DNA of 64,000 nt from the NCBI GenBank assembly GCA_050613775.1, contig JBODTK010000131.1, forward strand, positions 372,001-436,000, given 5' to 3'. This DNA comes from Neocallimastix sp. 'constans'. Taxonomy: Eukaryota. How positions within the stretch are numbered: the stretch's first letter is position 1; the number at the start of each line of letters is the position of its first letter. A model generated the notes under the pieces. The model was given only the letters and a program-made list of their open reading frames with translations. It made no database searches and had not been told where the DNA came from. This document shows positions 3,901 through 64,000 of the stretch, one piece after another. The translations under genes and the position numbers were made by a program.

Positions 3901-4034
3901 TATAAATAAAAAGATATATATATAGAGAAAATTTTCTTTGTTACTAAAAAAAATTACTATTATTTTTAGTATCAAATTTAAAATTTATAAAAAAAGTATA
4001 AATATATATATATTTTGTTAAGGCAAAGAGAAAA

Positions 4035-39053: not shown

Positions 39054-39067
39054 TGAGACTCTTAATC
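39054..39067 (-). other. Primer-binding site complementary to the anticodon arm of tRNA-Lys(CUU)
   Basis: Plus strand TGAGACTCTTAATC abuts the 5' LTR and matches the recalled eukaryotic tRNA-Lys(CUU) anticodon stem-loop. Confidence 0.7.
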
Positions 39068-39480
39068 TATTAAATACCAAAAGAAAATATTGAGAAAATT
39101 AGATATATTTTTATTGTAGCATTTTATATATAATACTTAATATTTAATTTTATTTTATCTTTATTTTTTTATAATTACAAAAGTGTATATTTTTGACAAG
39201 GTTACATTTTATTTCTTTTATAATTTTATTTAAATATAATAATATTCTGATTGGCTAAATTATATTAAAGTCATTATTATGTATTTATTTTTTTTTATAT
39301 TCTAACAAATTTAAGATGATTTAATTAAAAATATTCAAAAAAAAAAAAAAAAAAAAATATATTAATTTTTAATTTGGTTTAATATAGATTATATAAAAAA
39401 TATTTAATATGTTTATATAATTTAAAATTAATATAAATATATAATATATATTACTAAAGTTAAATTATATAAATATTAAA

Positions 39481-40167: not shown

Positions 40168-41869
40168 TAATATAATAATAAATAATAATGTGTATTACTA
40201 AGCATATAAATAACAAATAAAAAACTATAGTATTAGTTTATATTAAAATATTTAATAATAAAATTCTAATAATTATGATAAAAACAAATTAGAAAATAAT
40301 AATTAATAAAATAAATTAATTAAAATAAATTAATAAATTAAAGAAAGTAATAAAAGATTAAATTAAAAAAAGTAAAAAAAAAAAAAAAAAAATCTATCAA
40401 GTCTAAAAAAACAAATATATATATTTGAAAAAATATAGATGTATAAATAATAATAAATAAATATTTTTTACACTCTATAAATATAAAATAAAAATAAAAA
40501 TAAATTAAAATCTATTACATTTTATATAAAAAGTTACAAATAAAATATCTAAACAAATAAGATATTTTTTTTAAAATTCAATATCAAATTTTTACTACTC
40601 GATATATTTTTAAATTAATAAATTTAAACAAAAAAAATATCTATTTATATGTTTTTTTTTTTTTTTTTTTTTTATTTATTTATTATTGTTATTATTATTA
40701 TTCAAATAATTTAAAACTTAAGGTACAAAATCTGAAACATATAAACACATATCTATATATTCATTATATATCCAGACAACTACTTCATTATCCCTCTTAA
40801 AAAATTGAGGGATAGCAATAATTTTACTTAAAACGGTAAAAATGATAAATAATTTAAGCAACATTTTAATGATATATTTGTATGGAATTATTTATTTTAA
40901 AAAATCATTTTATTTTTAATTTTGAATATGATAATTTTCACTGTAAAAAAATTACTAATTATTAAATTAAAAATTTGGTATAAATTTAAGTATAAATAAT
41001 ATTTTACTAATATATATAAGATATTAAATAAACTTAAATAGTTTTATATATTATTATATATTTATGTATGAATGATGAAATATGAAATAATTAATATTTA
41101 AGGAAAATAGTACTGACATTTTATTTGTTTAACTAGAGATATAAAAAATATACCTATATTGATTTAATGTTTATAATAATTTTAATTTTAACTTTATTTT
41201 TTTTAATACTAATCACTTATTTTCATTAATTATATTTTCCTTTTCAATCATATAATATACTAATAAATATATAATTTAAATTAATAAGTTTTGTTATTTT
41301 AAAAAAAAAAAAAAAAAAATAAATTGAACTTTTTTTAATTAAAAAAAAAAAAATTTATATTGAAAATAAAAAAAAAATTTTTACTTATAAAGATATTTGA
41401 TTTTCGATCTTTTAAAAAATATTTTAAAAAATATCTTTACTTATTTAGATTATTATTTTTATATTTTTTATATAATATATTTATATTTCCTTTTTTATAA
41501 AATAAAGAAATATATAAACAATATAATAGATTTCTTTTATTTTAAAAGTTATTTTAATAATTTTAAATATTGTACCTTCTAAGTAATGATTATCTAAATT
41601 TTATTTTTTATTATTATTATTATTATTATTTTTTGAAACCATTTTTTCTTTTTTTTATTTTTTTTTATTATTCTTTTTTTTTTTTGTAATTAGTATTATA
41701 CATCATTAGTATAATATTAATAATATTATACTAATGATAATATTAATACGGTTAGGGGCAATTAGTTAATTTAACAATTTGTACATGTACATTATGGTTT
41801 ATGAATTATATTAAATACATTACATTTTTTTTATTTTAATACATTATATTTAATTCTCATATTCTTACA

Positions 41870-42362
41870 TAATTGAATAATTGAATGATTGAATAATTGA
41901 ATAATTGAATAATTGAATAATTGAATAATTGAATAATTGAATAATTGAATAATTGAATAATTGAATAATTGAATAATTGAATAATTGAATAATTGAATAA
42001 TTGAATAATTGAATAATTGAATAATTGAATAATTGAATAATTGAATAATTGAATAATTGAATAATTGAATAATTGAATAATTGAATAATTGAATAATTGA
42101 ATAATTGAATAATTGAATAATTGAATAATTGAATAATTGAATAATTGAATAATTGAATAATTGAATAATTGAATAATTGAATAATTGAATAATTGAATAA
42201 TTGAATAATTGAATAATTGAATAATTGAATGATTGAATAATTGAATAATTGAATAATTGAATAATTGAATAATTGAATAATTGAATAATTGAATAATTGA
42301 ATAATTGAATAATTGAATAATTGAATAATTGAATAATTGAATAATTGAATAATTGAATAATT
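41870..42362. repeat. (AATTGAAT)n 8-bp satellite, ~61 units
   Basis: Near-perfect array with two GATTGAAT variants. Confidence 0.97.
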
Positions 42363-43960
42363 TAATAATATGTTATAATATATGAAATTAATTAAATTTG
42401 TTTAAAATAATGTTAATTATATTATTTTGTTATGCTTAAATTATTCTCTATTTGAAATACATTATTTAATTCATTGTTAAAATATTTCGTTGTATTATCA
42501 TCAAGCCTCAATTAGTATAAATAAACTTAATTTTGTCAAATTTTTTTTTTCTTTTGTAATTATCTATTTCTAAATAATAAATATTAATAAAAACTTTAAT
42601 TAATAATAAAACGTCTTATTTCCTCTTAATAATTGTCAAAAATATTATGTTAAGAAACACTCAAATAAGCTATAATAAACACAATAATAAATATATATGG
42701 ATTAGTAGTTTTTAGAATAATATTTTATTTATAACAGTATAAATTATTTTTATTCTCTTTTTGTATAAGATATATTTTTATAAAATAATAATTCCATGAT
42801 TTTTATACTTTTTATTTTAAATATTAATACAAGTAATTGGTCATTATTTATATTAAAGATAGATTAATTAAATTAATCATTATTTTGACAATAATAAATA
42901 ATTAAATAATATGTAAATACATACATACATACATACATACATAAATAAATAAATAAATAAATAAATAAAAAAAAAATAATTGAATAATAAATAATAAAAT
43001 GAATAAAAAGAGTATTTATTAATAAATAATAAATAATAAATAATAAATAATAAATAATAAATAATAAATAATAAATATTATTAATAAAATTATATAAATA
43101 ATAATATATAAATGTTAAACTTTTTTAATATTTTTTAAAATGAAACGTTACTCCTATTTAAATTAATATATTTGAGGCCTAATTTTCATATTATTTTATA
43201 TATTATAACAATAAGTTAATATAAAATAATATATGCAGATTTATTATTATGTCCAATTACAAATGTGTTATTTTTTTAAAAAAAAAAAAAGACCTAATAA
43301 AATTGGACTTAAAAATATGTACTACCTAAAAATTTATTGAAGAGTTGATTGCATATTAATATAATTGGATAATTGTATAATTAATATATAATATTAAAAA
43401 AAATTTATTCTTGTTTTTTTTTTTTTTTTTTTTATAATAAGATGTATCAAATATAGAAAAAATTATTTAAAAAAATTTATGTATTGACTTTTTGACTTGT
43501 CATAATCTTTTTAAATTGAAAAAAAAAAAAATTTTTTTTCTTCATAATATAATAATAACTTTTTTTATTTAAAGCAAGATAAAGAATATTACAAATTTAA
43601 TTAAGCAAGAATAATTAACCCCAAATTCAGAATTTTACACTCAGCAGATCTAAGTTTAGATGACCATTACCGGAGATTTTAATTCCTTAAATATTTTTCT
43701 AATTTCAAGTTTCAATTTAAAATTATTTGTGGCTTGTTTATGCCAAATGTGGCGTAAATTTGGATCAATTATTTTCTAACTCAAAAAAGGAAATAAATAA
43801 AAAAGTAAACAAACAATATAAACTTATTACTAAAAGTTTTATTAAAATATTATGACTATTTCTAATTATAAACCTATTAATTATTTATTAAACTATTTTT
43901 ACTTAGGATTTAATTTATATTCAATTTACTATTATTTATTTAATTATATAGCATTACTAT

Positions 43961-44240
43961 TGTAAAAAGAAAGTTTAATATAAATTAAAACAAACCAATA
44001 ATAAATAATTAAAGACAAGGATAATTGAACACCTCTCTATTCGAGTTGTATTAAGAAAAGCTTTATTATTCTTTAAATAAATAATAACAATTAAACACTT
44101 AAAATATAATACAACACTATTATTCCCTTCGTTAATTGGAGGTTGAGTTTAAATTAAGTATTTTATAATTTAATATTTAATTTATTTATTTTTATTTAAT
44201 AATAAAGTTATTTTATTAATACAATTTACGTTAATAGTTT
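43961..44240 (-). mobile_element. Truncated LTR of the same gypsy family as 61286-61844
   Basis: Starts TGTAAAA; shares AACACCTCTCTATTCGAGTTG and ACAATTTACGTTAATAGT with the 61286 LTR in the same orientation. Confidence 0.7.
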
Positions 44241-44699
44241 TTCTATAGATTTAAAACTTCTAATTCTTTTTTTCACTTGTATTAATTCTTTATTTATGGT
44301 TATCCGTTGCTTTTTTCATATTTTTTTTAACAATTTTAAAAAAAAAATTTAATTTTTTTGGCTTTAAAATAAAATTTTGATCAAAAATCTAAAAATTAAA
44401 TTTTTATATCAGAAAATTTATTTTATAATAATTTAATTATAATTTATTAAATTAAAAATTGAAAATTTTTTTGAATTATCGATTTTTAATTAATTAAATA
44501 TTTCGTACATTTTTACCAAATAAAATTTGCTTTGGCTATTCTGGTAGTCATTTTTTGTATAAATTTATATATATAAAGACATGAGAAATGAAATAAAAAA
44601 ATTTTTATAAATAAATTATTTAAATTATTTATTTTATATGTATTTATTTTTTTTTAAAAAACAAAAAAAAAAAAATTATTTATCATCATTTTATAATAT

Positions 44700-47600
44700 T
44701 ATCTTCGGGATAATGAAATTAAGAAGATTGAAACCGATTTGGATGAGGACCAGATAAATGGAAAAAATTTCCAACAAGACCTATACGTTAAAAAGTCAGA
44801 TTAAAGAATACTTGGATGCGAACCAAGAATAGGAAAGGATATACCGCAAAGAGTCCCAAAAGAAGATTGAGAATCTGATGGCCGTTCATCAAACTAAACC
44901 GCAAGGGATCGAGCGTTTAGGGAAAGTTAGCTTCTGAAAATCAGAAGAAGGCTCCAGTATCCACAAGTCAACCATCTTCCATTTACACATAGATAACAAG
45001 AGAACCTAGATTTCAAAAATGAATTATCAATACACGCCACCTATTCCTATACTTACTAAGAACGTGATGGATGATGTGATAATGACGAATGCGTACCCCT
45101 GCAGAGTACGAAAGAGACATCCCATACCAATATTCAATGGTGAAACAAGAGACGTGGAATCATTTATCGATGTACTTACATTGGTAGACACCAAAAATTA
45201 CCACCAGATCAAGCCTTACTACAAACCCCGTACTTCATCGAGGACCTCTTACAAGGAACGGTTTAAAAAAGTGGTTCCAGATGAATGAAGTACTCAAGCA
45301 AAGAGATGACCCGCAACCACAAAGATTAATGGATAGGTTTCTATAGGAATTTAAAAGTGAGTGAACTTTGAAGGAAGGTTAAAAACTGCTATGCTAAAAC
45401 TTAAATCATGAATGGAGAAAAGCCTACGAATACCTCTTCGAGTTCAATCGATTAAGCAGGAATACTACAGCTCACCGATGAAACTAAGAGAGATTGTTAC
45501 TGGTACAACAAGTAAAAAACCTTCCGTCCAAGAAGCTTGCCTATGACTTAGCTGTGGAATAGCAGACATTGGAAGAATCTACCTAACGTGTTTAAGAAGG
45601 TAGGAATGATACCTTCCCCCCGGTGGATTATAAAGACAAATACTTTGAAAGATATGAATATAAATGCGAAAAAAAAAAAATGCCATCATGGTCCTTATTA
45701 GGAATGATGGACCCACGAAGATCTAGGAATAGTAATAATCGTCAAAGCGATAGAAAAGACTTTAGTAGAAGAGAGTCTACAAGGCAATTAAATAATAATA
45801 AAGATATACGAGATAATAACACCCATAATGGAAGGAAAGATTTCGGTACGAGACCAAGCAGTGAACAAAATAATTTTAAAGGACTCCTGCACGAGTGGTA
45901 ACAACCCGATCCCTAAGACTGCGCTATTGACTTAAGATGAGCCGGAGTACGAAAAGTATGAGCAATAAGATAAGATAAGCAACTTAGGTTATCAGAGAGG
46001 GTCTCCAAAACCTAAAAGTACTGTATGATATGGGTTCACGGATGGACATGATCCATCCATAGTTACTCAAAGAAATGGGTTTCCAAATTCATGTTCGACC
46101 CTTAATACTCACTACTGCCGCTGGTAAAGAGTTCATTCCTAGGGTGACAGAGGAGTTCCATATAAAGGTAAAACTGGTAAAGTCAAATGGTATGGTATGA
46201 CTTTAAGACGAGAGGCAGACTAGCTGAGGCCATGCCGCGAACCATCCTATTGGGTTCAAAGTTTATGGACAGACATCTTATATACATATATATGGGAAAA
46301 TAGATGTCCACGACCAACAATCTATGATATACAAAATTGCTTGTGAGAGACCAGGACTACCAAATGTAGTTTCACCAGGAGAATGCAAAGGTAAAAAAAA
46401 AACATCTACTTGGTACAACTAGAGGATGAAGATAAAGCTGAAAAAAAGGAAAAGTGAACCTTCAGTGAGAATAACAAAAATTATAAATCAGGTTAATGAT
46501 AACAAGGACATTGAAGGTACGGTTTTTACGAAATGAACCAGGCAATTCTACTATGAGAGAGGAATAGTATATATTGGTGATTACTAGGATTATTTACTCG
46601 ATTACGATAAATGCGAAGATTTGGTTAAGATCACAAGAAGTTAAAAACCACAAGTAAAAAAAAAATAAAATTATCAATAACCCTACGGAAAAAAGAGTGT
46701 CTAGAAAATAATTCAAAAAAAGCTATTTGGCTTTAGTTACAAACTTCGTAGATGATATTAAGCATGCCTACCGACAAGACAAGATGACCTAAGAAATATT
46801 TAAGGATTTGGCAGAAGACACGAGAAATAACTAAAACAAGAAATATTGGTTAAAGCTGGATGGTCTTCTGGTTAGAAAATAAAACATTGAACAAGTTTAC
46901 GGACTAACATTGCTTAGGAAGACGATTATACAATTAAACCACAACAATGAGTATGCAGGTCATTTTAGTTATAAACAAAAACATCAGATCGAGTATTAAG
47001 AAACTTCAACTGGCCAAAAAATGAGGAAAAATATTTCAGGTTACATTTTGATGTGCTATAATAAATTAACCAAGATGATTCACATGATAGGATTTAAACA
47101 TCTACCAAAGGCTAACGTGTCTTGCTAATGCGTTCCTAAAGGAAATCTATAGGTGGCATAGATTCCCTAAGATTGTAACTACCAATTCAGGAACCCAATT
47201 TATGAGCCAGGTATGGAAAGAGCTACTAGAGTTCTTTGGGACGAAGAAAAACTACACTACCACAAGTCATCACGAAATTGTAGGCCAAGTTGAAAGGAAT
47301 AATACCTAGGTAGAAACCTATCTAAAATTCTTTGTTGGTACTTACGATGTCGAAAGCTGGATGGATTATCTGTTTTTAGCAGAGTTCTACAATTATAACT
47401 TACAACAACATAATCTACCCAACAGAGCCTTACTACAAATTACCCAAAATCCTTGTACTAGCTCCTACTGGTAACAAAGTGATAATTCTATAAATATAAC
47501 ATGTAATATCGTATTTAACGCATTAGCGTAACAATTAACGTAAATTGTTATATCAAATATTTTAATATTAAGTGATTAAAAATTAATTATTTAAAAATAA

Positions 47601-47700
47601 ATAAACACCTAAGTACAAGCTCTACCAACTATTCACAGAAAGAGTGAATTATCGCTGAGATATAAATAATTTAAGTTTAATAGGATAATTATTTTAAGAT
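44700..47700 (+). mobile_element. Heavily decayed Ty3/gypsy element with RT/RNase H deleted
   Basis: gag-like IPIFNGETRDVESFI; protease-like LYDMGS ... ILLGSKFMD. The integrase region 46720-47400 is homologous to 62520-63380 on the minus strand (YLAL.TNFVDDIK, GQVERNN, ESWMDYLFLAEF). A 3' LTR remnant starts at ~47454. Boundaries are approximate. Confidence 0.85.
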
Positions 47701-48179
47701 TAATATTATTACTGACCAACAATATTTAAGTATTTCTTTTAACCTAAATCATATACCTGTATACCATATTTATAGTGGTCACGTATTAAAAAACTCTCTC
47801 AAGAACCCATAGTACTTGTATGGCGGTTAAATTAATCCTATAATGAATTAATTAAAATTATAAAATTAAATAAGAAAATAATAATTAATCAAAATTCAGA
47901 ATATAGTATATAAGTGAATAGATAGTAATTATTTAAATAAATTCAGGTTAAGTTAGTGAATAAGTAAATATATTAATTAAAAAATCATTTAACAGAATTA
48001 AAATAATAATTTATTCAATATAATAAACTTTGTATTAATTAAGCCTCTGCATTAGCATGCGTAAATTTAACTTTAATTTTAATAATTTCTATTTAGCTAA
48101 ATCATTATTTTAAATATTCAGTTATGAAAAAAATTGTTAAACTGTTAAAGCTAACAAATTTTCTTAAAATTTATTAAAT

Positions 48180-50575
48180 TTATTTTTATTAAATTTTTGT
48201 TATTATTTTTATTCTAATTTTTTATTATTATTTTTATTTTGTTCTTAATTTTATTTTTTTTTGTTTTTATTTTTTTTTAATTCCAATTTTTTATTTTTTT
48301 TATTTTGTTGATTAAATTTTTATTTTTTTTAAATTTTTTTATGTCCAATATTCTATTTTTTTTTTCAATTTTTTAATTTTATTTTTTTTTGTTTTTATTT
48401 TTTTTTTTTATTTCAATTTTTTAATTTTTTTTTTATTTTTTAATTTTTTTTTATTTTTTTGATTCCAAATTTTATTTTATTTTATTTTTAATTTATTTTA
48501 TATCCGATTTTATTATTTTTTATTATTTTTTTTATTTTATTTTTTATTTTTTAATATCAAATTATTTTTATTTTTTTTTGATTTTAATTTTTTTTTATTT
48601 TTTTTTTTTTTTTTTTTTGATTCCATTTTTTATTATTTTTTGATTTTTTGATTACAATTTTTTATTTTTTATTTTTTTTATGTTAAATTTTTATTTTTTT
48701 TTATTTTTTTTTGATTCCATTTTTTATTATTTATTGATTTTTTGATTTCATTTTTTATTATTTTTTGTTTTTTTGATTCCAATTTTTTTATTTTTATTTT
48801 TTTTATTTTTCTTGATTCTAATTTTTATTTTTTTTTTTTCGATTTTATTTTATTTTTTTTTTTATGTCCAATTTTTATCTTTTATTTTATTTTTTATTTT
48901 TTTTTCAAGTCAAATTTTTATTTTTTTTTTTATTTTTTTTTTTAATTTTTTTTTTAATTTTTTTTTTAATTTTTTTTTTTATTTCTTAATTCCAATTTTT
49001 TTTTTATTTTTAATTTTTTTTTATGTCTAATTTTTATTTTTTTATTTTTTTTTTTATTTTTTTATGTTTAATTTTTATCTTTTTTTTTTTTTTATTTTTT
49101 TTTTTATTTTTTATAATTTTTTTTGATTCTAAGATTTTATTTTTTATTTTTTTTTAAGTCAAATTTTTATTTTTTTTATTTTTTTTTTAAGTCAAATTTT
49201 TATTTTTTTAATTTTTTTTAAGTCAAATTTTTATTTTTTTTTATTTTTTTTTAATTCTATTTTTTATTTCTTAATTCCAATTTTTTATTTATTTTTTAAT
49301 TTTTTTTTGAATTAATTTTTAATTTTATTTTTTTTTTATTTTTGATTCCAATTATTATTTTATTTTATTTATTTTTATTATTTTATTTTTTTCTAATTGG
49401 TTAAACGCAATAAAGGAAAAAATAAATAACATGAATCAAATAAACGTATTTGAAATAATAGAACATATACCCAAAGGCACAAATATCGTATCATGAGCAT
49501 GGCTATTCAAATACAAACATGACAAAAACGGCAACATCACAAAACGTAAGGCTAGATTGGTTGCCAGAGGATTTTCACAACTTTTCGGAATCGACTACTT
49601 CTACACATTCTCACCAACACTAAAATTAGATTCCTTACATATTATCGTAGTAATTGCGTTTCAAAGAAATTTCAAAATTCTGCAAATCGATATAAATGCC
49701 TCGTACCTAAATGCCAAACTCACTGAAGACATTTATATGAAACCACCTGAGGGATACAACAATGGTTCAAACCAAGGTTATTGGAAACTAAAGAGAGCTC
49801 TCTACAGCTTGATACAAGCAGGCCGCCAATGGAACGATGATTTAAACAATAGTCTCCTAGAAATGAATTCCAGGAGACTTGTCAGTGAACCTTGTATCTA
49901 TATAAAGGAAAACGAAACAAAGGAAATGATATGTATCATCACTGTATACGTTTATGATATCTTGATTATAGGTAAAGACAAAGATGTATTATTCGTTAAG
50001 GATCAAATACAAGAAAAATATAAAATCAAAGATATTGGAGAAGTGGATTTCGTCATCAAAATAAAATTTGAAAAAGTAAACGATGGTTACATCTTACATC
50101 AGAGGGAATACTTAAAAGAACTACTTAGGAAATATAACTTAATAAGATGTAATCCGACACGAAACACAAAACCCCTTGAAGATACTAATTTAAGAAGTAA
50201 CAGTTTTAAAGAAACAACATATTGAAGCACTATTGGTAATCTTCTATATTTATTTTATTTTTATTTTTTATTTTTTTTATTTTTATTTTTGATTCTATTT
50301 TTTATTTTTTTTTCTTTTATTTATTTTTATGTCTAATTTTTATTTTTTTTATTTTTTTTTTGATTTCAATTTTTATTTTTTATTTCCAATTTTTTATTTT
50401 TTTTTTATTTTTTATTTTATTTTATTTAAAATTTTATTTTTTCATTTTTTTTATTTCCAAATTTTTATTATTATTTTTTTTTAATCCAATTTTTATTTTA
50501 TTAATTTATTTTTTTTTTTAATTTCAATTATTTATTTTTCCTATTTTATTTATATTTAATATATATTTTTTTTTT
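48180..50575. repeat. Degenerate T-rich satellite (core TTTTGATTCCAATTTTTTATTTT)
   Basis: Dozens of GATTCCAA/ATGTCCAA/AAGTCAAA cores separated by T runs, interrupted by a copia fragment. Confidence 0.8.
49395..50251 (+). mobile_element. Isolated copia reverse-transcriptase fragment
   Basis: WLNAIKE...RKARLVARGFSQ.FGIDY...QIDINASYLNA...YVYDILI...IGNLLYL. No LTR, gag or integrase. Confidence 0.92.
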
Positions 50576-50736: not shown

Positions 50737-50818
50737 CGTCACCTGCAGGACTCGAACCTGCGCTCCCAAAGGGAAATGGCTTAGCAGGCCACCGCGTTAA
50801 CCACTCCGCCAAAGTGAC
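50737..50818 (-). tRNA. tRNA-Ser (anticodon GCT)
   Basis: GTCACTTTGGCGGAGTGGTTAACGCGGTGGCCTGCTAAGCCATTTCCCTTTGGGAGCGCAGGTTCGAGTCCTGCAGGTGACG: 7-bp acceptor stem, A and B boxes, long variable arm, G discriminator, and a T5 terminator a few nt downstream. Confidence 0.97.
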
Positions 50819-50832
50819 TTCCCATTGATTAT

Positions 50833-51636
50833 TGTTACGGAACAAATAAAATAATTAAAATTATATATAATTATTAAAGATTAAAAATTATTAATATTAG
50901 TGGAATTAAATAATAAATATTAAAATATTAAAATAATTATAAATTCAGTTATAATAAATTAGAAAATGTATTAATTATTATTTTTATTTAATATTGTAAT
51001 ACTTAATAATATTTTAATAGTTTATTATATTTTATTATTAAATTTTTATTATTAAATTTTTATTATTAAATTTTTATTATTAAATTTTTATTATTAAATT
51101 TTTATTCTAATCCAATCAAATAACTATTCTAAATGTATAAAAAGAACAAAGTAGTACAATACTTTAGTTCTCTCTCTTTTTTTCTTACAACTTTATTATT
51201 ATATTATTCTTTTGATATTTTCGAGTTTAAATGATAAATTTAGATAGTTAAGTTAAAATAAAATTAGTTTAAATAATTAAATTTAAATAGTTTAAATAAT
51301 AAATTAGTATAGTTTAAATAATAAAGTTAGAATAGATTGAATAATAAAAATAAAATAGTTTATTTTAAATAAAGTTAGAATTAAAAATAATTTAAGTTTT
51401 GTATTAAGTATTTAAAGGTTTTTAGTGTTTGGTTAATAGTTTTAATAATTATAGTTGTTAATTAAATTATTTATATTAGGTTATATTAATTTTGAATAAT
51501 TTATTTTAGTTTAAATTGTTTAGTATTTAGATTTTTAAATTAGAATAATAGATTAGAATAATAGAGTAGAATTTAAAATTTTCTTTAATTATTAGAATAT
51601 ATTATTTTATGATAAAAATTCTTCAGTTCTGTACCA
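50833..51636. mobile_element. Solo LTR-like element A1
   Basis: TGTTAC...GTACCA, TSD TTAT, 14 bp from the tRNA 5' end, nearly identical to A2. Confidence 0.85.
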
Positions 51637-51642
51637 TTATTA

Positions 51643-53299
51643 TGTAAGAATCTATAATTATTTTTAACAAAATAATTATATTTTCTTAGTTTGTCAAAGT
51701 TTTTAGATAATTTGGTCTTAACAATTAGGTCAAGATGCCAAATTATAGTAATTAATTAATAATTTAATTTTATTCTTATTTAATACATATTGTTATTAGT
51801 AAATTTTATAATTAAGTTTTTATTTAAAATATAAATTTTATTTAATTTTAATAATATTTTATTACATTATTATTTTATATAATTATTACTATAATTTAAA
51901 TTACAATAATCCTACAAAGGATTAATCAAAAGATTTAAACATGTATTTATATAAAATAATTAATTATTAAAATATTAATTATTAATATGAATATGCAATA
52001 ATATTAATATAAGTTTGATATTGATAATGTAAAATAAGATAATAATATAAATATTTAATATAAATAAAATATAAGAATATAATAACTAAATATTATATTT
52101 TATAATTAAAATATAATATGTAGAAATTAATTTAATGACAATCACGTGTTTACATTATTTAATATATATTAATTTCAATATGTTAATAATATTTAGTAAT
52201 TAGTTGGCCTAGACTAATTCCTAAATATTTTAATAAAGTTAATTTAATAATAATTATTATATTATTATTATTTATTAATATTGAAATTCAAATAACTGAA
52301 TTATCGAAATTGAAATTGAATTGAAATTCAGTTATTATCTTAACATAGTTAGGTTATAATTAATATAACTTTTATTTAACTCATATTTCATTTATACAAT
52401 TAATTATAATTAATAATTTATTTAATTATATATTAAAATTTTATTTAGTTTAATATTAAAAATTTATTTAATTAAATAATTTTTATACATTTAAAATAAT
52501 ATTAAATTTATTTAATTATTCACTTAATTATTAAATTTATTAGTTTTAGTTTTCTCTCACTCATTAAATCATAAACTAAAACACCATTCTGTATTTTATC
52601 ATGTATTCTGTATTCTAACATGTATTCTGTATTGTATTAATCATGTATTTTATTATTAATGTATTGTTTTATATTTTTATGTAAAGTTCTATAAAATAGA
52701 ACTAAATAGATTAAATTTTAAATTTTATGATCGAAATAATTTTCATTATTTTATTCTTTTATTTTCGATCATTATATTAGATTAAGTAATCGGTTAATTA
52801 AGGTTTTTCCAATTACTTCTTAAAAGTAATCGGTTTTACTTAATTAACGCGATGATCGATATGGATAGAATATCGATCAAAAAACTTATCTAGGTTTTTC
52901 TTCTAGTCTTTTCCTAGATAAGAGATTTGTTAAGATTAGAACCCCTTTTGATTTTAACCTTATTTTGACAAAAAAGTATAAATAAGGCTCTTGAGTTCTC
53001 TTTGAGAAATCAAGAGTTATTATTATAACAATTATAATATAATAATAATAACAATAAGTTTTAACATTTAAAATTTTTAATAAAAAATAAAACAAATTAT
53101 TTTAATAAAACAAATTTTATAATTAAAACTTTTCCTTATCAATTTTAGTGTTTCGTCTATTATAATTCGTTATAATAAACTCGATAATTAGAAAGAACCA
53201 TAGGTAAGTATGATTCTTTTCTAAACCTTTAATATTAGCAGTTAGAGCTAATATTAATGATTAATAATTTAATTATAATTTTTTAATTAAATTATTACA
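51643..53299. mobile_element. Solo LTR-like element B1 (contains nested G)
   Basis: TGTAA...TTACA, TSD TATTA, homologous to B2. Confidence 0.85.
51692..52345. mobile_element. Solo LTR-like element G nested in B1
   Basis: TGTCAA...TTAACA, TSD TAGTT; absent from B2, which has a single TAGTT at this site. Confidence 0.8.
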
Positions 53300-53304
53300 T
53301 ATTA

Positions 53305-54129
53305 TGTTACGGAACAAATAAAATAATTAAAATTATATATAATTATTAAAGATTAAAAATTATTAATATTAGTGGAATTAAATAATAAATATTAAAATAT
53401 TAAAATAATTATAAATTTAGTTATAATAAATTAGAAAATGTATTAATTATTATTTTTATTTAATATTATAATACTTAATAATATTTTAATAGTTTATTAT
53501 ATTTTATTATTAAATTTTTATTATTAAATTTTTATTATTAAATTTTTATTATTAAATTTTTATTATTAAATTTTTATTCTAATCCAATCAAATAACTATT
53601 CTAAATGTATAAAAAGAACAAAGTAGTACAATACTTTAGTTCTCTCTCTTTTTCTTACAACTTTATTATTATATTATTCTTTTGATATTTTCGAGTTTAA
53701 ATGATAAATTTAGATAGTTAAATTAAAATAAAATTAGTTTAAATAATTAAATTTAAATAGTTTAAATAATTAAATTTAAATAGTTTAAATAATAAATTAG
53801 TATAATTTAAATAATAAAGTTAGAATAGCTTAAATAATAAAAATAAAATAGTTTATTTTAAATAAAGTTAGAATTAAAAATAATTTAAGTTTTGTATTAA
53901 GTATTTAAAGGTTTTTAGTGTTTGGTTAATAGTTTTAATAATTATAGTTGTTAGTTAAATTATTTATATTAGGTTAAATTAATTTTGAATAATTTATTTT
54001 AGTTTAAATTGTTTAGTATTTAGATTTTTAAATTAGAATAATAGATTAGAATAATAGAATAGAATTTAAAATTTTCTTTAATTATTAGAATATATTATTT
54101 TATGATAAAAATTCTTCAGTTCTGTACCA
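53305..54129. mobile_element. Solo LTR-like element A2
   Basis: TGTTAC...GTACCA, flanks ATTA/ATTG (one mismatch). Confidence 0.85.
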
Positions 54130-54133
54130 ATTG

Positions 54134-56187
54134 TGGTAAAGAATGAACTAATAACCTTTATTTTATTATTCTTTACTAAATTGTACTGTTGAGGTTTTCG
54201 GGACAGAATAATAATAAATATAGAAATAAACACTAAAATAAAAAAAAATTAAAAATTAAAATATATCTTTTTTTTAAAATATTTTATTTATTTATTTAAT
54301 AAAAATTATTCAATTAAAAACTAAAAATAAATTAATTTCTTTAATAAGATTATATTTTTTTTCTTCAGATTATTTTTCTAAAATACAATTTTCTCATCTA
54401 TTTATATTTTTTTATCGTTAGAAATGGTCAAGCCATTTCTTTAGAATATCTTAGAGTTACATGTTTGAATTGTATTTAAATTATAAATTCATAATCTATT
54501 CTATTATAATAAATAATTATTACATATTATTAAATTCTAAACTATTTATTATTAATTGTAGTGATAATATATTTTAAAAATAATTTTATTACTTTTACAG
54601 AACTATTAGTAATAGAGTATTATTTAATTTTATACTATTTTTAAATAAAAGTATTTTAGATTATTATCTATTATTAATCTTATTATAAATAGGGTGTATT
54701 TTGGAAGGAAGTATTACTAATTTTAATGACAAGGATCATGGATTTAAGTAAAATATTTTTAAATCATTATTAATTATATTAATTTTTATTAATAATAAAT
54801 AATCTGTATTAGTAATATTTGTAAAATAAAATTTTCTTTAATAATAAAATATTGATAGAATAAATTATATTAATAAAACTAGATATTGATAATAATATTG
54901 ATATTAATAATATAGTATTAATTTTAATAATAAAGTATTGATATTAATAAAGAATTTATATTAATAATAATAAATTTAATATTAGTAATAATTTGGCAGT
55001 AATAGAACATAAGAAAGTTCCCCAAGTAAGGAAATAAATAATTTAATTTTAGTGGTTAAGTTATTTTTATGAAAAATAATAAAATTAACATTATTTGTTC
55101 ATTCCTTAACAGTACTTTCCTATATTCTTGATAACCTAAACTTAATAATAAAATTTAATTTATTTTGATATAAATTAATTTTAACTTGTAAATAATGTAA
55201 ATCAATTTTAATTAATTACTTTATTGTTATATGTATATATTAAAATACAATTTTAAATATTAAAATTATACTTTTAAGATACTAAATTATTAAAACTATT
55301 AATTAAATATTATTATAAAAATTATTATAAAATTATTAAAATTATTAAATATTATTATAAAAATTATTATAAACTATTAATATTATAAAATTATTAAGAT
55401 TATTAATTAAATTTATTATTAAAAATTATTATTAAAAATTATTATTAAAAATTATTATAAAAATTATTATTTAAATATTATCAAATTTATTAATTAAATA
55501 TTATAAAAATTTTATTTTATTTTTGAAAATAATTACAAGTATTATTTAAAATAATTAAAGATTATTAAATTTATTATATATATTAAAACTATTAATTAAA
55601 TATTATTATAAAATTATTATAAAATTATTAAAACTATTAATTAAATATTATTATTAAAATTATTATAAAATTTACTATTAAAATTATTAATTAAATATTA
55701 TAAAAATTTTTATTTTATTTTTGAAAATAATTACAAGTATTATTTAAAATAATTAAAGATTATTAAATTTATTATATTAATCCTTAAAAACAATTTATTT
55801 AACTTAAAAATATCAAAGAAAATAGTAAAAACTATTTTCTATATATTTATTTTATAATTATTTTTAATTAAATTATATTTGAATATTATATTATTATATT
55901 TATAAAAATTAAAACAAAAATGAAATATTGATATAAAATTAATTCAATAATTCTATAAAATTACTTAAATTATAAACAACTAATTATACTTTAAATTTAT
56001 AAAAAATTATAAATATTGTAACAATTTCTTAAAAATTAAATATGTGTACTTCAAAAATAAAATTTTATATTAATAAATAATAAATAATTTTTAATAAAAA
56101 GAATTTTTTTGTTAAAATCAAAGCAGGGTAATACCCGTCCCCCCCTGCTTGATTTTAAATCCATACGAATCAACCCCGAGTCTACCA
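54134..56187. mobile_element. Solo LTR-like element C1 (contains nested H)
   Basis: TGGTA...TACCA, TSD ATTG, homologous to C2. Confidence 0.85.
54187..55111. mobile_element. Solo LTR-like element H nested in C1
   Basis: TGTTGAGG...CCTTAACA, TSD GTAC; absent from C2. Confidence 0.75.
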
Positions 56188-56189
56188 AT

Positions 56190-56394
56190 TGATAAATAAC
56201 AAAATTATAAAAATAGTTTCTAATATATAATTATACAATAAACTAACCTTATATATATAACATAATTAATTATAGTTAAAATTACTTTAGAAAACAAAAT
56301 AAAATTAATTAATTAACAACAAAATTAAATGAAAATATTTTCTTATTCAAACAAACTCTGACATGAAATTAACTAAATAATAATTAACTGAATA

Positions 56395-56446
<52 letters not shown>

Positions 56447-56839
56447 ATTGTTATCTTAATTAATTTTTTAAATTTAATAAAATTAATATTATTTATTTGT
56501 TTTATTTTACTTTAAATAATTATTTTAAAGTTGTAAATAGCTTAAGTTTAAGGAAAAATATAAATACCTTTAATATTTTTCTTATTTTTCTTTATTATTA
56601 TTATATATGAAATTAATATTTAATAACTTGTAATTTTAATTTTATATTTTTAATAATCAAAATTTAATAAATTTATAAATAAAAATTAAACAATAAATAT
56701 TAGAAAAAGAGCGTTTTCTAATAAAACTTTTGTGTTTATTTTATAAAACATTTTTATTATTATTTTTTTTTACTTTGATAAAGAAAATAATCACTTTTTG
56801 ATTCTAAATCAAAATTAAGATTACTTTCAATATTTATCA
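56190..56839. mobile_element. Solo LTR-like element D1
   Basis: Perfect 9-bp terminal inverted repeat TGATAAATA...TATTTATCA; reconstructed TSD ATTAT. Confidence 0.75.
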
Positions 56840-56845
56840 ATTATA

Positions 56846-57677
56846 TGGTAAAGAACGAACATATAATGGATTATTAATTAGAATTTCAACTTACTTTAGA
56901 ATCCATTATATTGTTCTTTACTTAATTTTACTTTACTATATTTTCTATACTAAATTATTTTATAAATATAATTTTTTTTTATATTTTTATTAAAAGTTTC
57001 TAAAATATTATCAATAATTCTATATTTTTATTATTAATATCAATATCTATAATTTAACCTAAAATTTTATTATTAAGTGCTTATTATCAATATTAATATT
57101 TAATTTTTATTTTTCAAATATATTATTATATTATTATTATATTGTATCAATATTAAAATTGTATTCTTTTTAGTATTTTATTTTATTTTTAAATTGGTTA
57201 TTTAATATTTTTATTCCCCACAAATAAAATCAAATCTTAATTGATTAATAATAAATATTAAATATATTATAGTTTTTAAATTTATTTTATATAAAATATA
57301 AGAATATTATATTAATAGTCTTGATTAAAATAACTTTATTTTTCTGTGAAATCTTTTTAAATTTTGTTTGTTTCTTTTCGTATATATTAAATAATTTAGT
57401 TTTAGTATATGAAAAATAATATAAAATTATATAAACAAAATTTATTAAAATAAAAATATTTATGAATTAGTTAATTTAAATTAATATAAAATTTTTAGTA
57501 ATTAGTAATAGTAAATTATTTTTTTTTAAATATGATAATAAAATGTAGAAAGGCTTTACATATTTATTTTTTTTAAAAAGTATAAATAAGTGAAGTTTTT
57601 CAATAATTAAAATGTAGACAGAAAAATATTAAAAATAAATAATTAATAAAATTTCTAATTAAACCCGAACCATAGCA
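56846..57677. mobile_element. Solo LTR-like element C3 (C-related termini)
   Basis: TGGTAAAGAA...CCCGAACCATAGCA, flanks TATA/TATG. Confidence 0.65.
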
Positions 57678-57681
57678 TATG

Positions 57682-58342
57682 TGATACGATACCACCATAA
57701 AAATAAGATTTAGGTAGGAAATTTAGGTTAGAAATATTGTATAAATATTATTGGTTATAATAATTAAAATAATTTATATATAGTTATTCAAATAATTATT
57801 TTTAAAAAACATGGTTAATTCTTTTATCATAATTAAAATAGATAAATTATATTACTAATGATTCTATTATTATGATAATAAATTAATTCATCATTATTAT
57901 TAATAAGTTTTATTTTATATTTTAAGTATTATTTTGAGAATTATATAGTTTTAGGAGTTATATTATAAATATTGATGATTATATTTTATTTAGGAAATAT
58001 ATTTTTAAATATTGATTATTATATACTATTTAATTATGAAAATGTATTATTAAATAAACTTATTAGGAAATTAATAGTTTAAGAGATATGTTTAATATAA
58101 AAATATAATATTAAATAATTATTTTAACAATTATATAAAATTAAGAGAATGTAATAATAAATATTTATATATGTAAAAATAAAATTATAAAAATAAATAA
58201 AGAATAAAATATTATTATAAAACATTATTATTATAAATTATTTTCTTATATTTATTAGAATATATTATCGTGTCATAATTCCCTAGAAAACGACCAAATA
58301 AATAAATAGCTAGATATGGAATATTTTAAATGTTCTGTATTA
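57682..58342. mobile_element. Solo LTR-like element F
   Basis: TGATAC...GTATTA (terminal CA apparently changed to TA), TSD TATG. Confidence 0.65.
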
Positions 58343-58348
58343 TATGTG

Positions 58349-59309
58349 TGTAAGAATCTATAATTATTTTTAAATAAAATAATTATATTTTCTTAGTTAA
58401 GTTATAATTATAACTTTATTTAATTATATAATATTTATTCATTTAAATATTAATTATAATTTATTTAAATCAATATTAAATATTCATTAATTTAATACAA
58501 CAAAATTTATTTAATTAATTATTATTTATACATTTATAAATAATTATAGTTTATTTAATTATACATTTAATTATTAATTTTATTAGTCTTAGTTTATTTA
58601 TTTAATTAAATTGTAAACAAATATATTATGTATTCTAATATGTATTTTAATAATGTATTCTGTATTTTGTTTATTAATATCATTATTATGTTATTTTCCT
58701 TATTTGTAAATTTATGATTTTATGATCGAAATATCTTTTATTATTTTATTCTTTTATTTTCGATAATTAGATTAGATTAGCGAATCGGTTAATTAGGGTT
58801 TTCCCAATCACTTCTTAAAAGTAATTGGTTTTACCTAATTGATACGATGAACGATATGGATAGAATATCGATCAAAAATATTATCTAGGTTTTTCTGTCT
58901 AATCTTTTCCTAAATTAGAGATTTGTTAAAATTAGAAAACATTTTTTAATTTAACCTTATTTTTCAAAAAAGTATAAATAAGGCTCTTGAATTCTCTTTG
59001 AGAAATCAAGAGTTATTATTATAACAATTATAATATAATAATAACATTAATAAATATTTTATATTTCTATTTTAATAAAGTTAGTTTTAATAAAACAAAT
59101 TTAAAAATAAAATAAAATAAAATAATCTTTTCTCTTTGACAATTCTGTGTTATTAGTTTATTATAATTAGTTATAATAAACTCTTTCTAATAGAAGATAA
59201 GTATATTTATCTTTTTTGCTTTCTCAATTTAATAATAATTATTATTTAATTATTATTAAGTTGTAGTTAATAATTTAATTATAATTAATATTATAATTAA
59301 ATTATTACA
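58349..59309. mobile_element. Solo LTR-like element B2
   Basis: TGTAA...TTACA, TSD ATGTG; inserted into the first two bases of C2. Confidence 0.85.
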
Positions 59310-59312
59310 ATG

Positions 59313-60301
59313 TGGTAAAGAATGAATTAATAACATTTATTTTGTTATAAAATATTATTAATTATTTTTTAATTAAGTGTTCTTTCCTATATTCTTCATA
59401 ACCTAAACCTCATTGTAAAAATAATTTATTTTAATATAAATTAAATTTAACTTGTAAATAATATTAAATCAATTTTAATTAATTAATTTGTTGTATATTA
59501 TTAAACATATGTATATATTAAAGTATTATTGTAAATATTAAAAATTATATACTTTTAAGATATTTTGAATTATTAAATTTATTAATTAAATATTATTATA
59601 AAATTATTATAAAATTATTAAAACTATTAATTAAATATTATTATAAAATTATTAAAATTATTAATTAAATATTATTATAAAATTGTTATAAAATTATTAA
59701 AACTATTAATTAAATATTATTATAAAATTATTAAAATTATTAATTAAATATTATTATTAAAATTATTATAAAATTTACTATTAAAATTATTAATTAAATA
59801 TTATAAAAATTTTTTATTTTATTTTTGAAAATAATTACAAGTATTATTTAAAATAATTAAAGATTATTAAATTTATTATATTAATCCTTAAAAACAATTT
59901 ATTTAACTTAAAAATATCAAAGAAAATAGTAAAAACTATTTTCTATATATTTATTTTATAATTATTTTTAATTAAATTATATTTGAATATTATATTATTA
60001 TATTTATAAAAATTAAAACAAAAATGAAATATTGATATAAAATTAATTCAATAATTCTATAAAATTACTTAAATTATAAACAAATAATTATACTTTAAAT
60101 TTATAAAGAAATATAAATATTGTAAATATTTCTTAAAAATTAAATGTATGTACTTCAAAAATAAATCTTAATATTAATAAATAATAAATAATTTTAGTAA
60201 AAAGAAATTTTTTTTTTTATATAATTTAAAATCAAAGCAGGGTAATACCCGTCCCCCCCTGCTTGATTTTAAATCTATACGTGTTAACCCCTAGTCTACC
60301 A
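59313..60301. mobile_element. Solo LTR-like element C2
   Basis: TGGTA...TACCA, TSD TATG (58343-46 / 60302-05). Confidence 0.85.
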
Positions 60302-60305
60302 TATG

Positions 60306-61283
60306 TGATAAATAACAAAATTATTAAATTAAAATAAATAATAAAGAACAAATTCTTGTCTAACTTAACCCAAAAATTAATCCATTCTAAAAAAAAAATT
60401 AAATCCATATTAAAGAAAATCTAATTAAATAAAAATAATTAAAATAAAATAATAATAAATTAATTAATCATTAATAATTTTAATTAAAATCTAAAATAAA
60501 TTAGTAAATAATATTTTTCTAAAACTACAAATAAACAAAATAATAAACAAATTTAATAAATTATAAATAACAAATTAACAAACTTATAAACATCTCAAAA
60601 TTAAAATTAAATAGTTAAATAATTTTTAAGTTACTTTTATTTAAAATAATGATTATTTTATTTATTTTATAACTCAACTTTTATATACAAATTGTAATTA
60701 AAATAACATTTTAAAACTCATCTTTATTAATATTTTAATTGTAAATATTGTTTAATTTAATAATAAATTATTCTTTATTTCTCTTTTATTAATTTTATTA
60801 TTTTTAATGTAAATAGTTTAAAATCAAAGAAAAATATAAAAACATGTAAATATTTCTTATAAATTATTCTTTATTATTAATTATTTAATAAATTATTATA
60901 GATATTTTTATTAGTTTTTAATAATCAATTTTTATGATTATTAATTATTTAATAAATTATTATAGATATTTTATTAGTTATTAATAATCAATTTTATTAT
61001 TAAAATTTAAAATAAATTAGTATAAATAATAAATATTTCATTTTTATTATTTTATTAGTTTTAACAATTATTTTATTAATTTAAACAAAATTAATTATTA
61101 AATAAATAAAGATTAATATTAAAATAAAAATAAATTTTTTTTAATAAAACATTTTTGTGTTTAATAATAAAACATATTTATTTTTTTTTTAAATTTCTTA
61201 AATCTATTTTATTCAGTATTTATCCTCTTATTCACTTCTACAAAATTTAATTTTTGTAGATTAAGAATATCAGGTATAAATCA
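60306..61283. mobile_element. Solo LTR-like element D2
   Basis: TGATAAATAACAAAATT start shared with D1; ends AAATCA; TSD TATG. Confidence 0.75.
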
Positions 61284-61285
61284 TA

Positions 61286-64000
61286 TGTAAAATGTAAGTT
61301 TATTATTAACTAAAATAACGAAAAACAATTAAATTTAAAGGCTAAGATAACTTAACACCTCTCTATTCGAGTTGTTAATAATAAACACTAAATTAACTAT
61401 AATTATAACTATTATCTTCTATTACACTAGAATATAGCGCAACACTTTATAACTCTATCTGTTATCAGTTACTGGGCTTATACTGAGTAATATATTTTTA
61501 TTTAATAATTATATTTTATTTATTAATATTAATATTTTTATCAACAATTTACGTTAATAGTAACGCTAGTGCGTTACAGTTACAAGTTCAATTGTTATTT
61601 ATACATGTCAATAATATTATGATTGGTAAATAATTTAATTTAACTTAGTTTACTAATCACTAAATAAAATGTATTTATCTAAGTATTTAACTATATAATT
61701 AATTATAAAAAATAATAAAATTTAATGTACGAAATTAATAAAAGATTTTATTTGATTAGCCGAAATTGCTAACAGTTTAGAGATACGTTACGTAACCAAA
61801 GAACTATCATTGGATAGGTTTGAAGTTACCATGTATCTATTACAAGGCCTCTCCCAAGGAGCAAGTTACTAATGGTTGACGACGTTAGCAATAGTAACTA
61901 AAATCTTGATAATCCTCCAGCAATTTTGCATAGTGAGGATTGTTGTCGATCACGTCGGCGTTGACCCTCTCTTATTTATCGTTCTGGTACGCAACCAGAT
62001 ATTGGTACTGTCCTTGGTGCTTTCTAGATCCAAGGATATGAATTATCTTTTGTCTTCCTACAGGAACTGGTACTAATGTCTTTGGTAGTTTATAGTATGG
62101 TTCCAATTCACTCACGTGGAACACTAGGTACATATTTGGAAACGGCGAATGACTAATATCTATCTCGTAGTTTTTCTTTTCTTCGTCGACGCCTACTACC
62201 TTGAACGGTCCAAACTTTCTCGTTGCTAATTTATAAAATGGAAACGCATCGTAGTTTTCTGGCTTTCTTAGCCATACCTTGTCCAACAGTCTATACCTGG
62301 GGTAGTTATCAATACGAGTCTTATCCATGTTGTCCATGTATCTTGTCTGAGCGATTTCCAATATGTGCTTTAGGTTTCCTAAGTTATGAGCAAAGCTATC
62401 GATCATTTTAGTTTCGCCTAACGAATGCACTATGTCGGCTGTCTTTGGGGAGTTGTGTACCTGGTAGTTATACAAGGTAAGGAAAGGAGATTGTTTGGTA
62501 GAAGCGTGGATTGAATTGTTATAGCAGAACTCTGCTAAGAACAAGTAATCCATCCAGCTTTCATCTTCGTAGGTTCCCACAAAGCACCGAAAATAAGTTT
62601 CTACGTATGCATTGTTCCTTTCGACTTGACCTACTGTTTCATGGTGACTAGTGGTAACGTAGTTTACTTTGGTTCCGAAGAACTATTCCAGCTCCTTCCA
62701 TACTTGGCTTGTAAACTGAACTCCTCTATCAGTCGTAACCACCTTAGGGAATCCGTGCAAACTGTAAATTTCCTTCAGAAATGCATCAACAGTCTCGTTA
62801 GCGTTGGGCACATGTTTAAATCCTATCAGGTGTATCATCTTGGTCAATTTGTCACAGCACACTAAGATACAACCTGCTCTTTTCGTTTCCCAAATATAAA
62901 CATCTTCCGTTCTTGTCCTACATTTTACTGGCAGATCCGTTATAAAGTCTAATTGTACCTCTTGCCTGGGTAACTCTGCAACTGGAACTCTAACCGCAGT
63001 ACTATATTCCTTGTGTCTATCATCCTTTTTGGTAGCGCAGGTTTTGCAAGCCTTTACTTAGCCTGAAATATCCTTCCTCATCTTCGGCCAGTAGAAATTC
63101 CTAGATACAAGGTCCGAAGTCTTATCAATTCCTAAGTGACCTGCGTACTCCGAGTCATGGTTTAATTGAATAATTGTTTTTCTGAACGTTGTGGACACGT
63201 ATACTTGTTCAGGGTTTTCTTTTCTCACCAGAAGACCATCTACTTCCAGTCAATGCTTCTTGTTATAATTGTTTCTGGCGTCATCTGCTAAATCTTTTAT
63301 TATCTCTCTGGCCATTTTGTCCTGTCTGTTGGCCTGCTTAATATCATCCACGAAATTGGTAGCTAAGGCTAAATAACTTGCTTCTCCGTCTACATCGTCA
63401 AACCTTACCAATTGATCTGGTTTCAATAGCCTATCTTTAGGAAATTCTTTACCCTCAGTTTTCTTTGTTTCAACTCTGGAGAGGGCATCAGATTTGCCAT
63501 TCTTTTTCCCAGGTCTATATACTATTTCGAACCAGTACGTGGCGAATAATTCTTGCCATCTGATTTGCCTAGGAGTTAATAGTTGTGGTTTTGTAGCGAA
63601 CAATAGATTTTTGTGGTTACTATAAACAATAATCTTGTGCTTCGTACTTTGAAGCAAGTGTCGCCATTCTGTAAAAGCAGTCTTAATGGCTAACAATTTT
63701 TTCTCGGTAATCGAGTAGTTCACTTCAGCCTTGCTGAGTGTCTTTGAATAATAATATATAGGATGAAGACTACCATCGTCTACTTTTTGTGACAACACAC
63801 CTCCTATCGCGTAATTACTAGCATCATATTCATCGAAGAATTGTTTCTCGTGGTCAGGGTAAGTTAGCACTGGCGGAGAGGTGAGCATTTCCTTCAACTT
63901 GTGAAACGCGGCCAATCCTTCTTCATTCCATTCGAATTTCTCTTTCTTCGAAGTCATCTTAAATAGCGGCTTGGCTATTTCTGAAAAGTTTCTTATAAAA
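61286..64000 (-). mobile_element. Ty3/gypsy (chromovirus-like) retrotransposon, 3' portion; runs off the window
   Basis: 3' LTR 61286-61844 (TGTAA...TTACA) preceded by PPT-like GGGAGAGG. RNase H DASNYAIGGVLSQ..YSITEK.LLAI; integrase HHCC (HDSEYAGHLG...CKTC); core QLDFITDLP, SDRGVQFTS, GQVERNN; GPF motif; chromodomain-like tail. Several stops. Confidence 0.95.

What the first reader, a model, noticed from the sequence alone, without database searches (positions are those of the whole stretch)
50737..61844. Chronologically ordered stack of LTR insertions, all targeted 13-17 bp upstream of one tRNA-Ser gene
Seen: the ~11 kb next to the tRNA 5' end is wholly TG...CA elements separated by a few bases: tRNA-TTCCCATTGA-TTAT[A1]TTATTA[B1]TATTA[A2]ATTG[C1]AT[D1]ATTATA[C3]TATG[F]TATGTG[B2]ATG[C2]TATG[D2]TA[E]. 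Removing each element with its 4-5-bp TSD regenerates the same flank each time, needing only two G>A changes. Insertion distances, oldest to newest: E 13, D2 15, C2 15, B2 17, F 15, C3 15, D1 14, C1 16, A2 16, B1 16, A1 14 bp. New elements land next to the tRNA and push older ones outward, giving a polarised insertion record from at least five or six families. Established: yeast Ty3 integrates at Pol III start sites via TFIIIB, and Dictyostelium DGLT-A lies shortly upstream of tRNA genes. Inference: several retroelement families in this fungus share position-specific Pol III targeting, followed by solo-LTR formation. I know of no description of this in zoosporic fungi, nor of stacks this deep.
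Basis: partly seen in the sequence, partly recalled or inferred. Interest (0 to 1): 0.88.

Follow-up and report, generated by a model that had tools for sequence, protein, structure and literature searches.

The report
Retrotransposon stack at gut-fungus tRNA gene
Eleven retrotransposon ends (LTRs), with two more nested inside them, are packed against the start of one tRNA gene in what is likely an anaerobic gut fungus, likely because several unrelated families each insert at the tRNA's transcription start and push older copies outward, as yeast Ty3 does.

Summary
The stack is real. Eleven TG…CA elements fill 10,970 of 11,012 bp beside an intact tRNA-Ser(GCT). Peeling them off with 4–5-bp duplications needs two mismatches and gives distances of 13–17 bp; shuffles almost never do this.

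Corrections:
- E is not a solo LTR. It is the 3′ LTR of a chromovirus-type gypsy element whose broken pol runs to the window end.
- Two nested elements were missed (G in C1, H in B1). They would lie 69 and 65 bp from the tRNA if inserted while their host was nearest.
- The duplications alone force only 5 of 45 age relations. All five make the proximal copy newer.

C is a true LTR: a metagenome contig holds an intact gag-pol ending in it. Its Pol belongs to a gut-fungal clade without a chromodomain, separate from E's clade. A second genome shows an A-like element abutting an E-like LTR end.

Best reading: Ty3/DGLT-A-like targeting of the Pol III start site by several families, then solo-LTR formation. 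The mechanism is known; the host group, integrase lineage and depth appear new. No second tRNA-anchored locus was found, so genome-wide targeting is untested.

The parts
50737..50818 (-). tRNA-Ser(GCT) gene, intact A and B boxes; CAA motif 9-7 bp upstream of the mature 5' end
50833..51636 (+). A1, solo-LTR-like, TSD TTAT, 14 bp from tRNA; strand inferred from the PPT before A-type termini in L010
51643..53299 (.). B1, solo-LTR-like, 5-bp TSD TATTA, holds nested H; TATA-like motif on + at 52977
51692..52345 (.).
   Evidence: empty site in B2
53305..54129 (+). A2, 98.9% to A1 over 802 aligned bases, TSD ATTA/ATTG
54134..56187 (+). C1, solo LTR of the L004 family, U3 end facing the tRNA; its TSD ATTG takes in D1's terminal TG; holds nested G
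54187..55111 (.).
   Evidence: empty site in the L004 LTR
56190..56839 (.). D1, solo-LTR-like, 5-bp TSD ATTAT, internal poly(A) run
56846..57677 (.). C3, shares only its left terminus with C1/C2; TSD TATA/TATG
57682..58342 (.). F, solo-LTR-like, right end TA instead of CA, TSD TATG
58349..59309 (.). B2, 79.5% to B1 with H set aside; TSD ATGTG takes in C2's terminal TG
59313..60301 (+). C2, solo LTR of the L004 family, TSD TATG
60306..61283 (.). D2, solo-LTR-like; TSD TATG takes in E's terminal TG
61286..61844 (-). E, 559-bp 3' LTR of a chromovirus-type Ty3/gypsy element, U5 end facing the tRNA
61845..61855 (-). Polypurine tract of element E
61856..64000 (-). Broken pol of element E: RNase H, integrase core, SH3_Tf2-like and a degenerate chromodomain-like tail, with stops and frame breaks; runs off the window

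Best explanation
The 11 kb is a pile of LTR-like elements beside one tRNA gene, likely built by several Ty3/gypsy retrotransposon families whose integration complex would be tethered by the Pol III initiation factors (TFIIIB/TFIIIC) on that gene, so that each new copy would land at the transcription start and push older copies outward. Shown: the packing, the TSDs, the 13-17-bp distances, and LTR identity for C and E. The tRNA-proximal edge of the ten TSDs sits 9-12 bp upstream, 0-3 bp from a CAA motif. Inferred: each full element later shrank to a solo LTR by LTR-LTR recombination. The tRNA promoter is internal, so the gene stays a target after every insertion. Inferred: G and H mark a second window about 65-70 bp upstream, just beyond the TFIIIB footprint. 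Inferred: the C/A clade lacks the integrase tail where Ty3's Brf1-binding chromodomain lies, so it probably uses another contact, as DGLT-A does with Tfc4.
For: Peel far beyond chance. TSD length is constant within families: A 4/4, B 5/5, C 4/4. Three TSDs take in the tRNA-side TG of the older neighbour and none the far-side CA. Distances return to the mean (slope -1.05; P about 0.04 under a random walk). All 5 forced pairs make the proximal copy newer. C1 is 95.0% (208/219) and C2 90.3% (214/237) to the LTR of an intact element. Distal copies are more AT-shifted, 93 vs 60 sites, P=0.009. Intact parent of C. A-like LTR flush against an E-like U5 end in another genome. Ty3 inserts next to the CAA start motif (PMC6673722, abstract and passages); DGLT-A averages 15 bp (PMC5006619).
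Against: Only one tRNA-anchored locus. None of the fetched gut-fungal contigs holds a tRNA beside an LTR; they are short and end inside the LTRs. E-like pieces at 43961-44399 and 47489-47708 (68-71% to E) have no Pol III gene next to them, so E's lineage is not strictly targeted, and E's own TSD cannot be checked. The order is not forced by TSDs. The AT-shift comes mainly from the B pair (66 vs 41) and may reflect subfamily difference. No parent was found for B, D1, D2, C3, F, G or H.
Confidence: 0.78

Rival explanations
1. The elements target the terminus of an LTR already in place (self-nesting at the terminal TG), and the tRNA only happens to lie beside the founder E.
For: L010 shows an A-like LTR flush against an E-like end with no tRNA in view. 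Many removal orders fit the TSDs. E-like LTRs occur away from tRNAs.
Against: Distance from the tRNA would drift like a random walk; it returns to about 15 bp instead (P about 0.04, n=10). The neighbours' termini differ between families. The E-like end at 43961 carries none of the stack's termini within 2 mismatches. The tRNA side of L010 is cut off, so it does not bear on this point.
Confidence: 0.1
2. A mixed stack: C, E and probably A are LTRs, but some of B, D1, D2, C3, F, G and H are non-autonomous cut-and-paste elements with TG..CA ends that use the same site.
For: No internal region was found for these families.
Against: Terminal inverted repeats are short and imperfect. LTRs of the same Pol clade carry D/F-like termini, seen by eye in L009 and L011. 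B has a TATA-like motif at matching places in both copies.
Confidence: 0.12
3. Untargeted insertions survived here because this is a tolerated repeat graveyard, or the array is an assembly or duplication artefact.
For: The window is repeat-rich, with copia and gypsy remains and a 13-kb tandem array. The junctions were not checked against reads.
Against: Ten insertions collapse to one 5-bp window with matching TSDs. The copies are 79-99% alike, each with its own TSD.
Confidence: 0.03

Closest known systems
Ty3 of Saccharomyces cerevisiae
   Same: Ty3/gypsy order RT-RH-IN; best PDB hit for both Pol types (367 and 397 bits). Inserts 1-4 bp from the Pol III start (PMC5911963 passages), next to CAA.
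   Different: The C-family Pol ends at about Ty3 residue 1443 of 1547, so it lacks the tail that holds Ty3's vestigial chromodomain (bioRxiv 2021.07.27.453949 passages; the position mapping is my inference). The integrase motif reads DYFTKW against Ty3's DRFSKR. TSD is 4 bp against 5.
DGLT-A of dictyostelids
   Same: 13-33 bp (mean 15) upstream of tRNA coding sequence, short integrase tail with no chromodomain, many solo LTRs. Dl_DGLT-A sits at 55-65 bp, like G and H. Repeated insertion at one tRNA is noted (PMC5006619).
   Different: Single ORF against two here; either orientation against one orientation within each repeated family here. No DGLT-A sequence was on hand, so kinship is untested.
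Tj1 of Schizosaccharomyces japonicus, and Tca8, Tyl3, Tyl6, Ylt1 of yeasts
   Same: Tj1 is related to Tf1 and inserts 1-10 bp upstream of tRNA start sites (PMC4600332, first 10,000 characters). It is the closest parallel for E, which has an SH3_Tf2-1 domain.
   Different: All are ascomycete yeasts (review table). No base-resolved multi-family stack appears in the passages read.
TRE5 and NLTR-B non-LTR elements of dictyostelids
   Same: Second window about 40-64 bp upstream of tRNA genes.
   Different: Non-LTR elements with poly(A) ends; G and H have TG..CA ends and 4-5-bp TSDs.

Membership tests
Ty3/gypsy LTR retrotransposon (family C) | LTR preceded by PPT; gag and pol in order PR-RT-RH-IN | tested here: met
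   L004: zf-CCHC gag, 1352-aa pol, purine run, then the C LTR
Ty3/gypsy LTR retrotransposon (element E) | PPT and RH-IN order next to the LTR | tested here: met
Ty3/gypsy LTR retrotransposon (family A) | Same LTR found around gag-pol | tested here: inconclusive
   L010 LTR shares both termini with A; internal similarity is no better than background
Ty3/gypsy LTR retrotransposon (B, D1, D2, C3, F, G, H) | Same LTR found around gag-pol | tested here: inconclusive
   TG..CA ends and TSDs only; no match among fetched loci
Chromovirus (E clade) | Groups with chromodomain-bearing Pol; chromodomain after the integrase | tested here: inconclusive
   Groups with two canonical chromoviral Pols at SH-aLRT 100; the tail of relative P0001 gives only Tudor-knot E=0.034 and no Chromo hit
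Chromovirus (C/A clade) | Chromodomain, or placement with chromoviruses | tested here: not met
   No chromo or SH3_Tf2 hit; separate clade
Pol III start-site-targeted elements (Ty3/DGLT-A type) | Insertion about 13-17 bp upstream of a tRNA coding sequence | tested here: met
   11 of 11 stacked elements after peeling, at one locus
Pol III start-site-targeted elements (Ty3/DGLT-A type) | Most copies genome-wide lie at Pol III genes | not testable with these tools
   No genome held; fetched contigs too short
Pol III start-site-targeted elements (Ty3/DGLT-A type) | Integrase or RNase H binds TFIIIB or TFIIIC | not tested
   No host TBP, Brf1 or Tfc4 sequence was obtained; no complex prediction was run
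DGLT-A family proper | Monophyly with DGLT-A in RT-RH-IN | not tested
   No DGLT-A or Ty3 row in the tree

The most novel reading that the evidence does not exclude
Anaerobic gut fungi carry a large non-chromoviral Ty3/gypsy clade that evolved Pol III start-site targeting on its own, without Ty3's chromodomain, and shares the site with a chromovirus lineage. A third set uses a second window 65-70 bp upstream. tRNA genes across these repeat-rich genomes would then grow polar, multi-family stacks that read like a dated log of retrotransposon activity. That would show tRNA targeting is not tied to compact genomes.
Probability: 0.45. Interest if true: 0.78.

Novelty: new variant of a known kind. 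Interest (0 to 1): 0.62.

Why it matters
In the review table read (PMC5911963), position-specific tRNA targeting by LTR elements is listed only for ascomycete yeasts and dictyostelids. The usual explanation is gene-dense genomes (PMC5006619, PMC6101501). A case in a very AT-rich, repeat-rich gut fungus, from an integrase clade apart from the chromoviruses, would test that explanation. It would also add another molecular route to the Pol III start site. An intact element exists (L004), so the mechanism can be tested, and such an integrase could give a safe-harbour insertion tool for fungi that are hard to engineer (my inference). Polar stacks would also give relative ages of families without a molecular clock.

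Tried and rejected
No whole genome is held, and the junctions were not checked against sequencing runs, so strain differences at the proximal end remain open.

Viral-contig scans found nothing useful: E integrase, 0 relatives; A end, 0; C Pol, 0; alignment, 2 distant hits at 32%; C end, 0. In the metagenome scan 5 of 6 hits were chance.

In prokaryote genome bins, 4 of 29 loci were close relatives (54-60%) on stray fungal-like contigs. Wider searches found matches in 3 of 57 and 3 of 301 genomes. Ten tRNA-bearing or neighbouring stretches fetched from two bins looked like the prokaryote's own DNA; I judged this by eye from their first 230 bases and GC. Whole-stack DNA hits in these bins were mostly AT-rich noise.

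Cluster look-ups gave no taxon names. The representative search was crowded by chimeric long proteins. The atlas gave only generic gypsy integrases. Earlier-findings look-ups gave nothing relevant.

Rejected: A1 and A2 as the two LTRs of one element (each has its own TSD, and no PBS follows A1); D1 and D2 as one family; strict order from TSDs alone. Two more nested candidates (C3 offset 66, 238 bp; F offset 70, 378 bp) have no empty-site check and are not counted. The 42-row tree used 23 picked of the 147 search hits from each of the two clades together, plus 19 outgroup rows, quick method, no named references.

Full report
Observation. The window is about 10-19% GC outside coding parts. It holds one tRNA gene, Ser(GCT), at 50737-50818 on the minus strand, with intact A box, B box and terminator. 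From 50833 to 61844, eleven elements cover 10,970 of 11,012 bases. One of 200,000 spacer-order shuffles and none of 200,000 letter shuffles did as well. In three cases the duplication includes the terminal TG of the next element out: C1 into D1, B2 into C2, D2 into E.

Order. I enumerated all removal orders. With two mismatches allowed, 216,720 of 3,628,800 orders fit. Five of 45 pairs are forced (B1 before A2, B1 before D1, A2 before D1, C1 before D1, B2 before C2), all with the proximal copy newer; with three mismatches three pairs remain forced. None is forced the other way. The strict log therefore needs the assumption that the site is fixed by the tRNA. That assumption has modest independent support. 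Distances return to their mean (slope -1.05; 3.9% of random-walk simulations reach it). The proximal C1 is closer than the distal C2 to the LTR of an intact element (208/219 against 214/237). Distal copies carry A/T where proximal copies carry G/C at 93 sites against 60, mostly from the B pair.

What the elements are. E is preceded on the minus strand by a polypurine tract and a broken pol with RNase H, integrase and Tf2-like SH3 domains, so it is a 3' LTR with its U5 end toward the tRNA. A metagenome scan for the C left end gave 6 hits, 1 real. That contig, L004, has open gag and 1352-residue pol frames, a purine run and then the C LTR. C is thus an LTR with its U3 end toward the tRNA. L004's Pol has 734 relatives at E<=1e-50 among the 7,988 candidates scored. 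Fifteen picked relatives form one clade at SH-aLRT 100, apart from E's relatives, which join two chromodomain-bearing Pols at 100. The C clade's integrase ends about 100 residues short of Ty3's and has no chromodomain hit. L010, a stray contig in a rumen genome bin with a Pol of this clade, has an LTR with A-type termini followed with no gap by an E-like U5 end (78% over 134 bases). That is the same junction type in another genome, but the contig is a short-read assembly, repeats the E-like start twice, and its tRNA side is cut off.

Nested elements. C1 holds a 925-bp element G (TSD GTAC) 53 bp from its tRNA-side end, and B1 a 654-bp element H (TSD TAGTT) 49 bp from its end. Empty sites are seen in L004 and B2. 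If each arrived while its host was nearest the tRNA, the distances were 69 and 65 bp. Two offsets this close have about a 1% chance under random nesting (a post-hoc figure). Dl_DGLT-A elements sit at 55-65 bp (PMC5006619 Table 1).

Host. The named close relatives of both Pol types carry the label Orpsp1_1 (74% to E's integrase). The DNA occurs in animal feces metagenomes. With the AT content this points to Neocallimastigomycota; that placement is my inference.

Mechanism. The tRNA-proximal edges of the ten TSDs lie 9-12 bp upstream of the mature 5' end, and the coding strand has CAA at -9 to -7. Ty3 strand transfer lies next to that start motif (PMC6673722, abstract and passages) and is set by TFIIIB through a vestigial chromodomain (bioRxiv 2021.07.27.453949, passages). 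DGLT-A reaches the same site through RNase H and Tfc4 (PMC6101501, passages). I infer tethering to the Pol III initiation complex, repeated use because the promoter is internal, and solo-LTR formation afterwards. The contact used by the C clade is unknown; it cannot be the Ty3-type tail.

Against. There is one tRNA-anchored locus. ARAGORN found one tRNA in loci L001-L037, in a chance hit. E-like pieces at 43961 and 47489 lie away from any Pol III gene. Seven of thirteen elements' families have no parent. Junctions were not checked against reads.

Literature. Six full-text searches showed no paper on tRNA-targeted LTR elements in anaerobic gut fungi or chytrids. None of the 20 papers listed mentions Neocallimastix, and one search returned none. 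The library lacks most subscription papers and Repbase entries, and I read no supplements; element lists there could bear on the novelty claim. I saw passages of PMC5006619, PMC5911963, PMC6101501, PMC6673722 and the Ty3 structure preprint, and the first part of PMC4600332. Repeated insertion at one tRNA gene is noted in a footnote of PMC5006619.

Verdict. The feature is real, and the likely mechanism is a known one. It is a new variant: a new host group, an integrase clade not shown to be Ty3's or DGLT-A's, thirteen insertions at one gene, and a probable second window. Interest 0.62.

Noticed in passing
window 1-13300: Array of diverged direct repeats, 75-87% alike, with periods of a few kb; not an obvious coding repeat.
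   Followed up: no
window 32935-39307: Broken copia element (gag, integrase, RT on the minus strand) bracketed by 240-bp repeats 95.8% alike; no tRNA beside it.
   Followed up: partly
window 43961-47708: Decayed gypsy element on the + strand, 75% to E's pol, with E-like LTR pieces in opposite orientations at 43961 and 47489.
   Followed up: partly
window 49497-50225: Copia RT fragment between long T-rich degenerate repeats, ending about 500 bp from the tRNA's 3' end.
   Followed up: no
window 21586-22230: Frame with three chitin-binding (Chitin_bind_1) repeats.
   Followed up: partly
window 41860-42370: Near-perfect short-period tandem repeat of about 500 bp.
   Followed up: no
window 56911-57150 and 57752-58130: Two further candidate nested TG..CA elements, 66 bp into C3 and 70 bp into F, with ends like F and like G/H; no empty site to confirm them.
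   Followed up: partly
L011 1-700: The end of one element (PPT plus F-like LTR) runs into the PBS and gag-pol of another whose 3' LTR differs: a recombinant or a mis-join.
   Followed up: no
L009-L012, G001-G003, G204: Several rumen or fecal prokaryote genome bins contain stray fungal retrotransposon contigs.
   Followed up: partly
window 50819-61285 junctions: Both peel mismatches and F's altered end are TpG>TpA or CpA>TpA changes, the pattern recalled for RIP-like mutation; three cases only.
   Followed up: no
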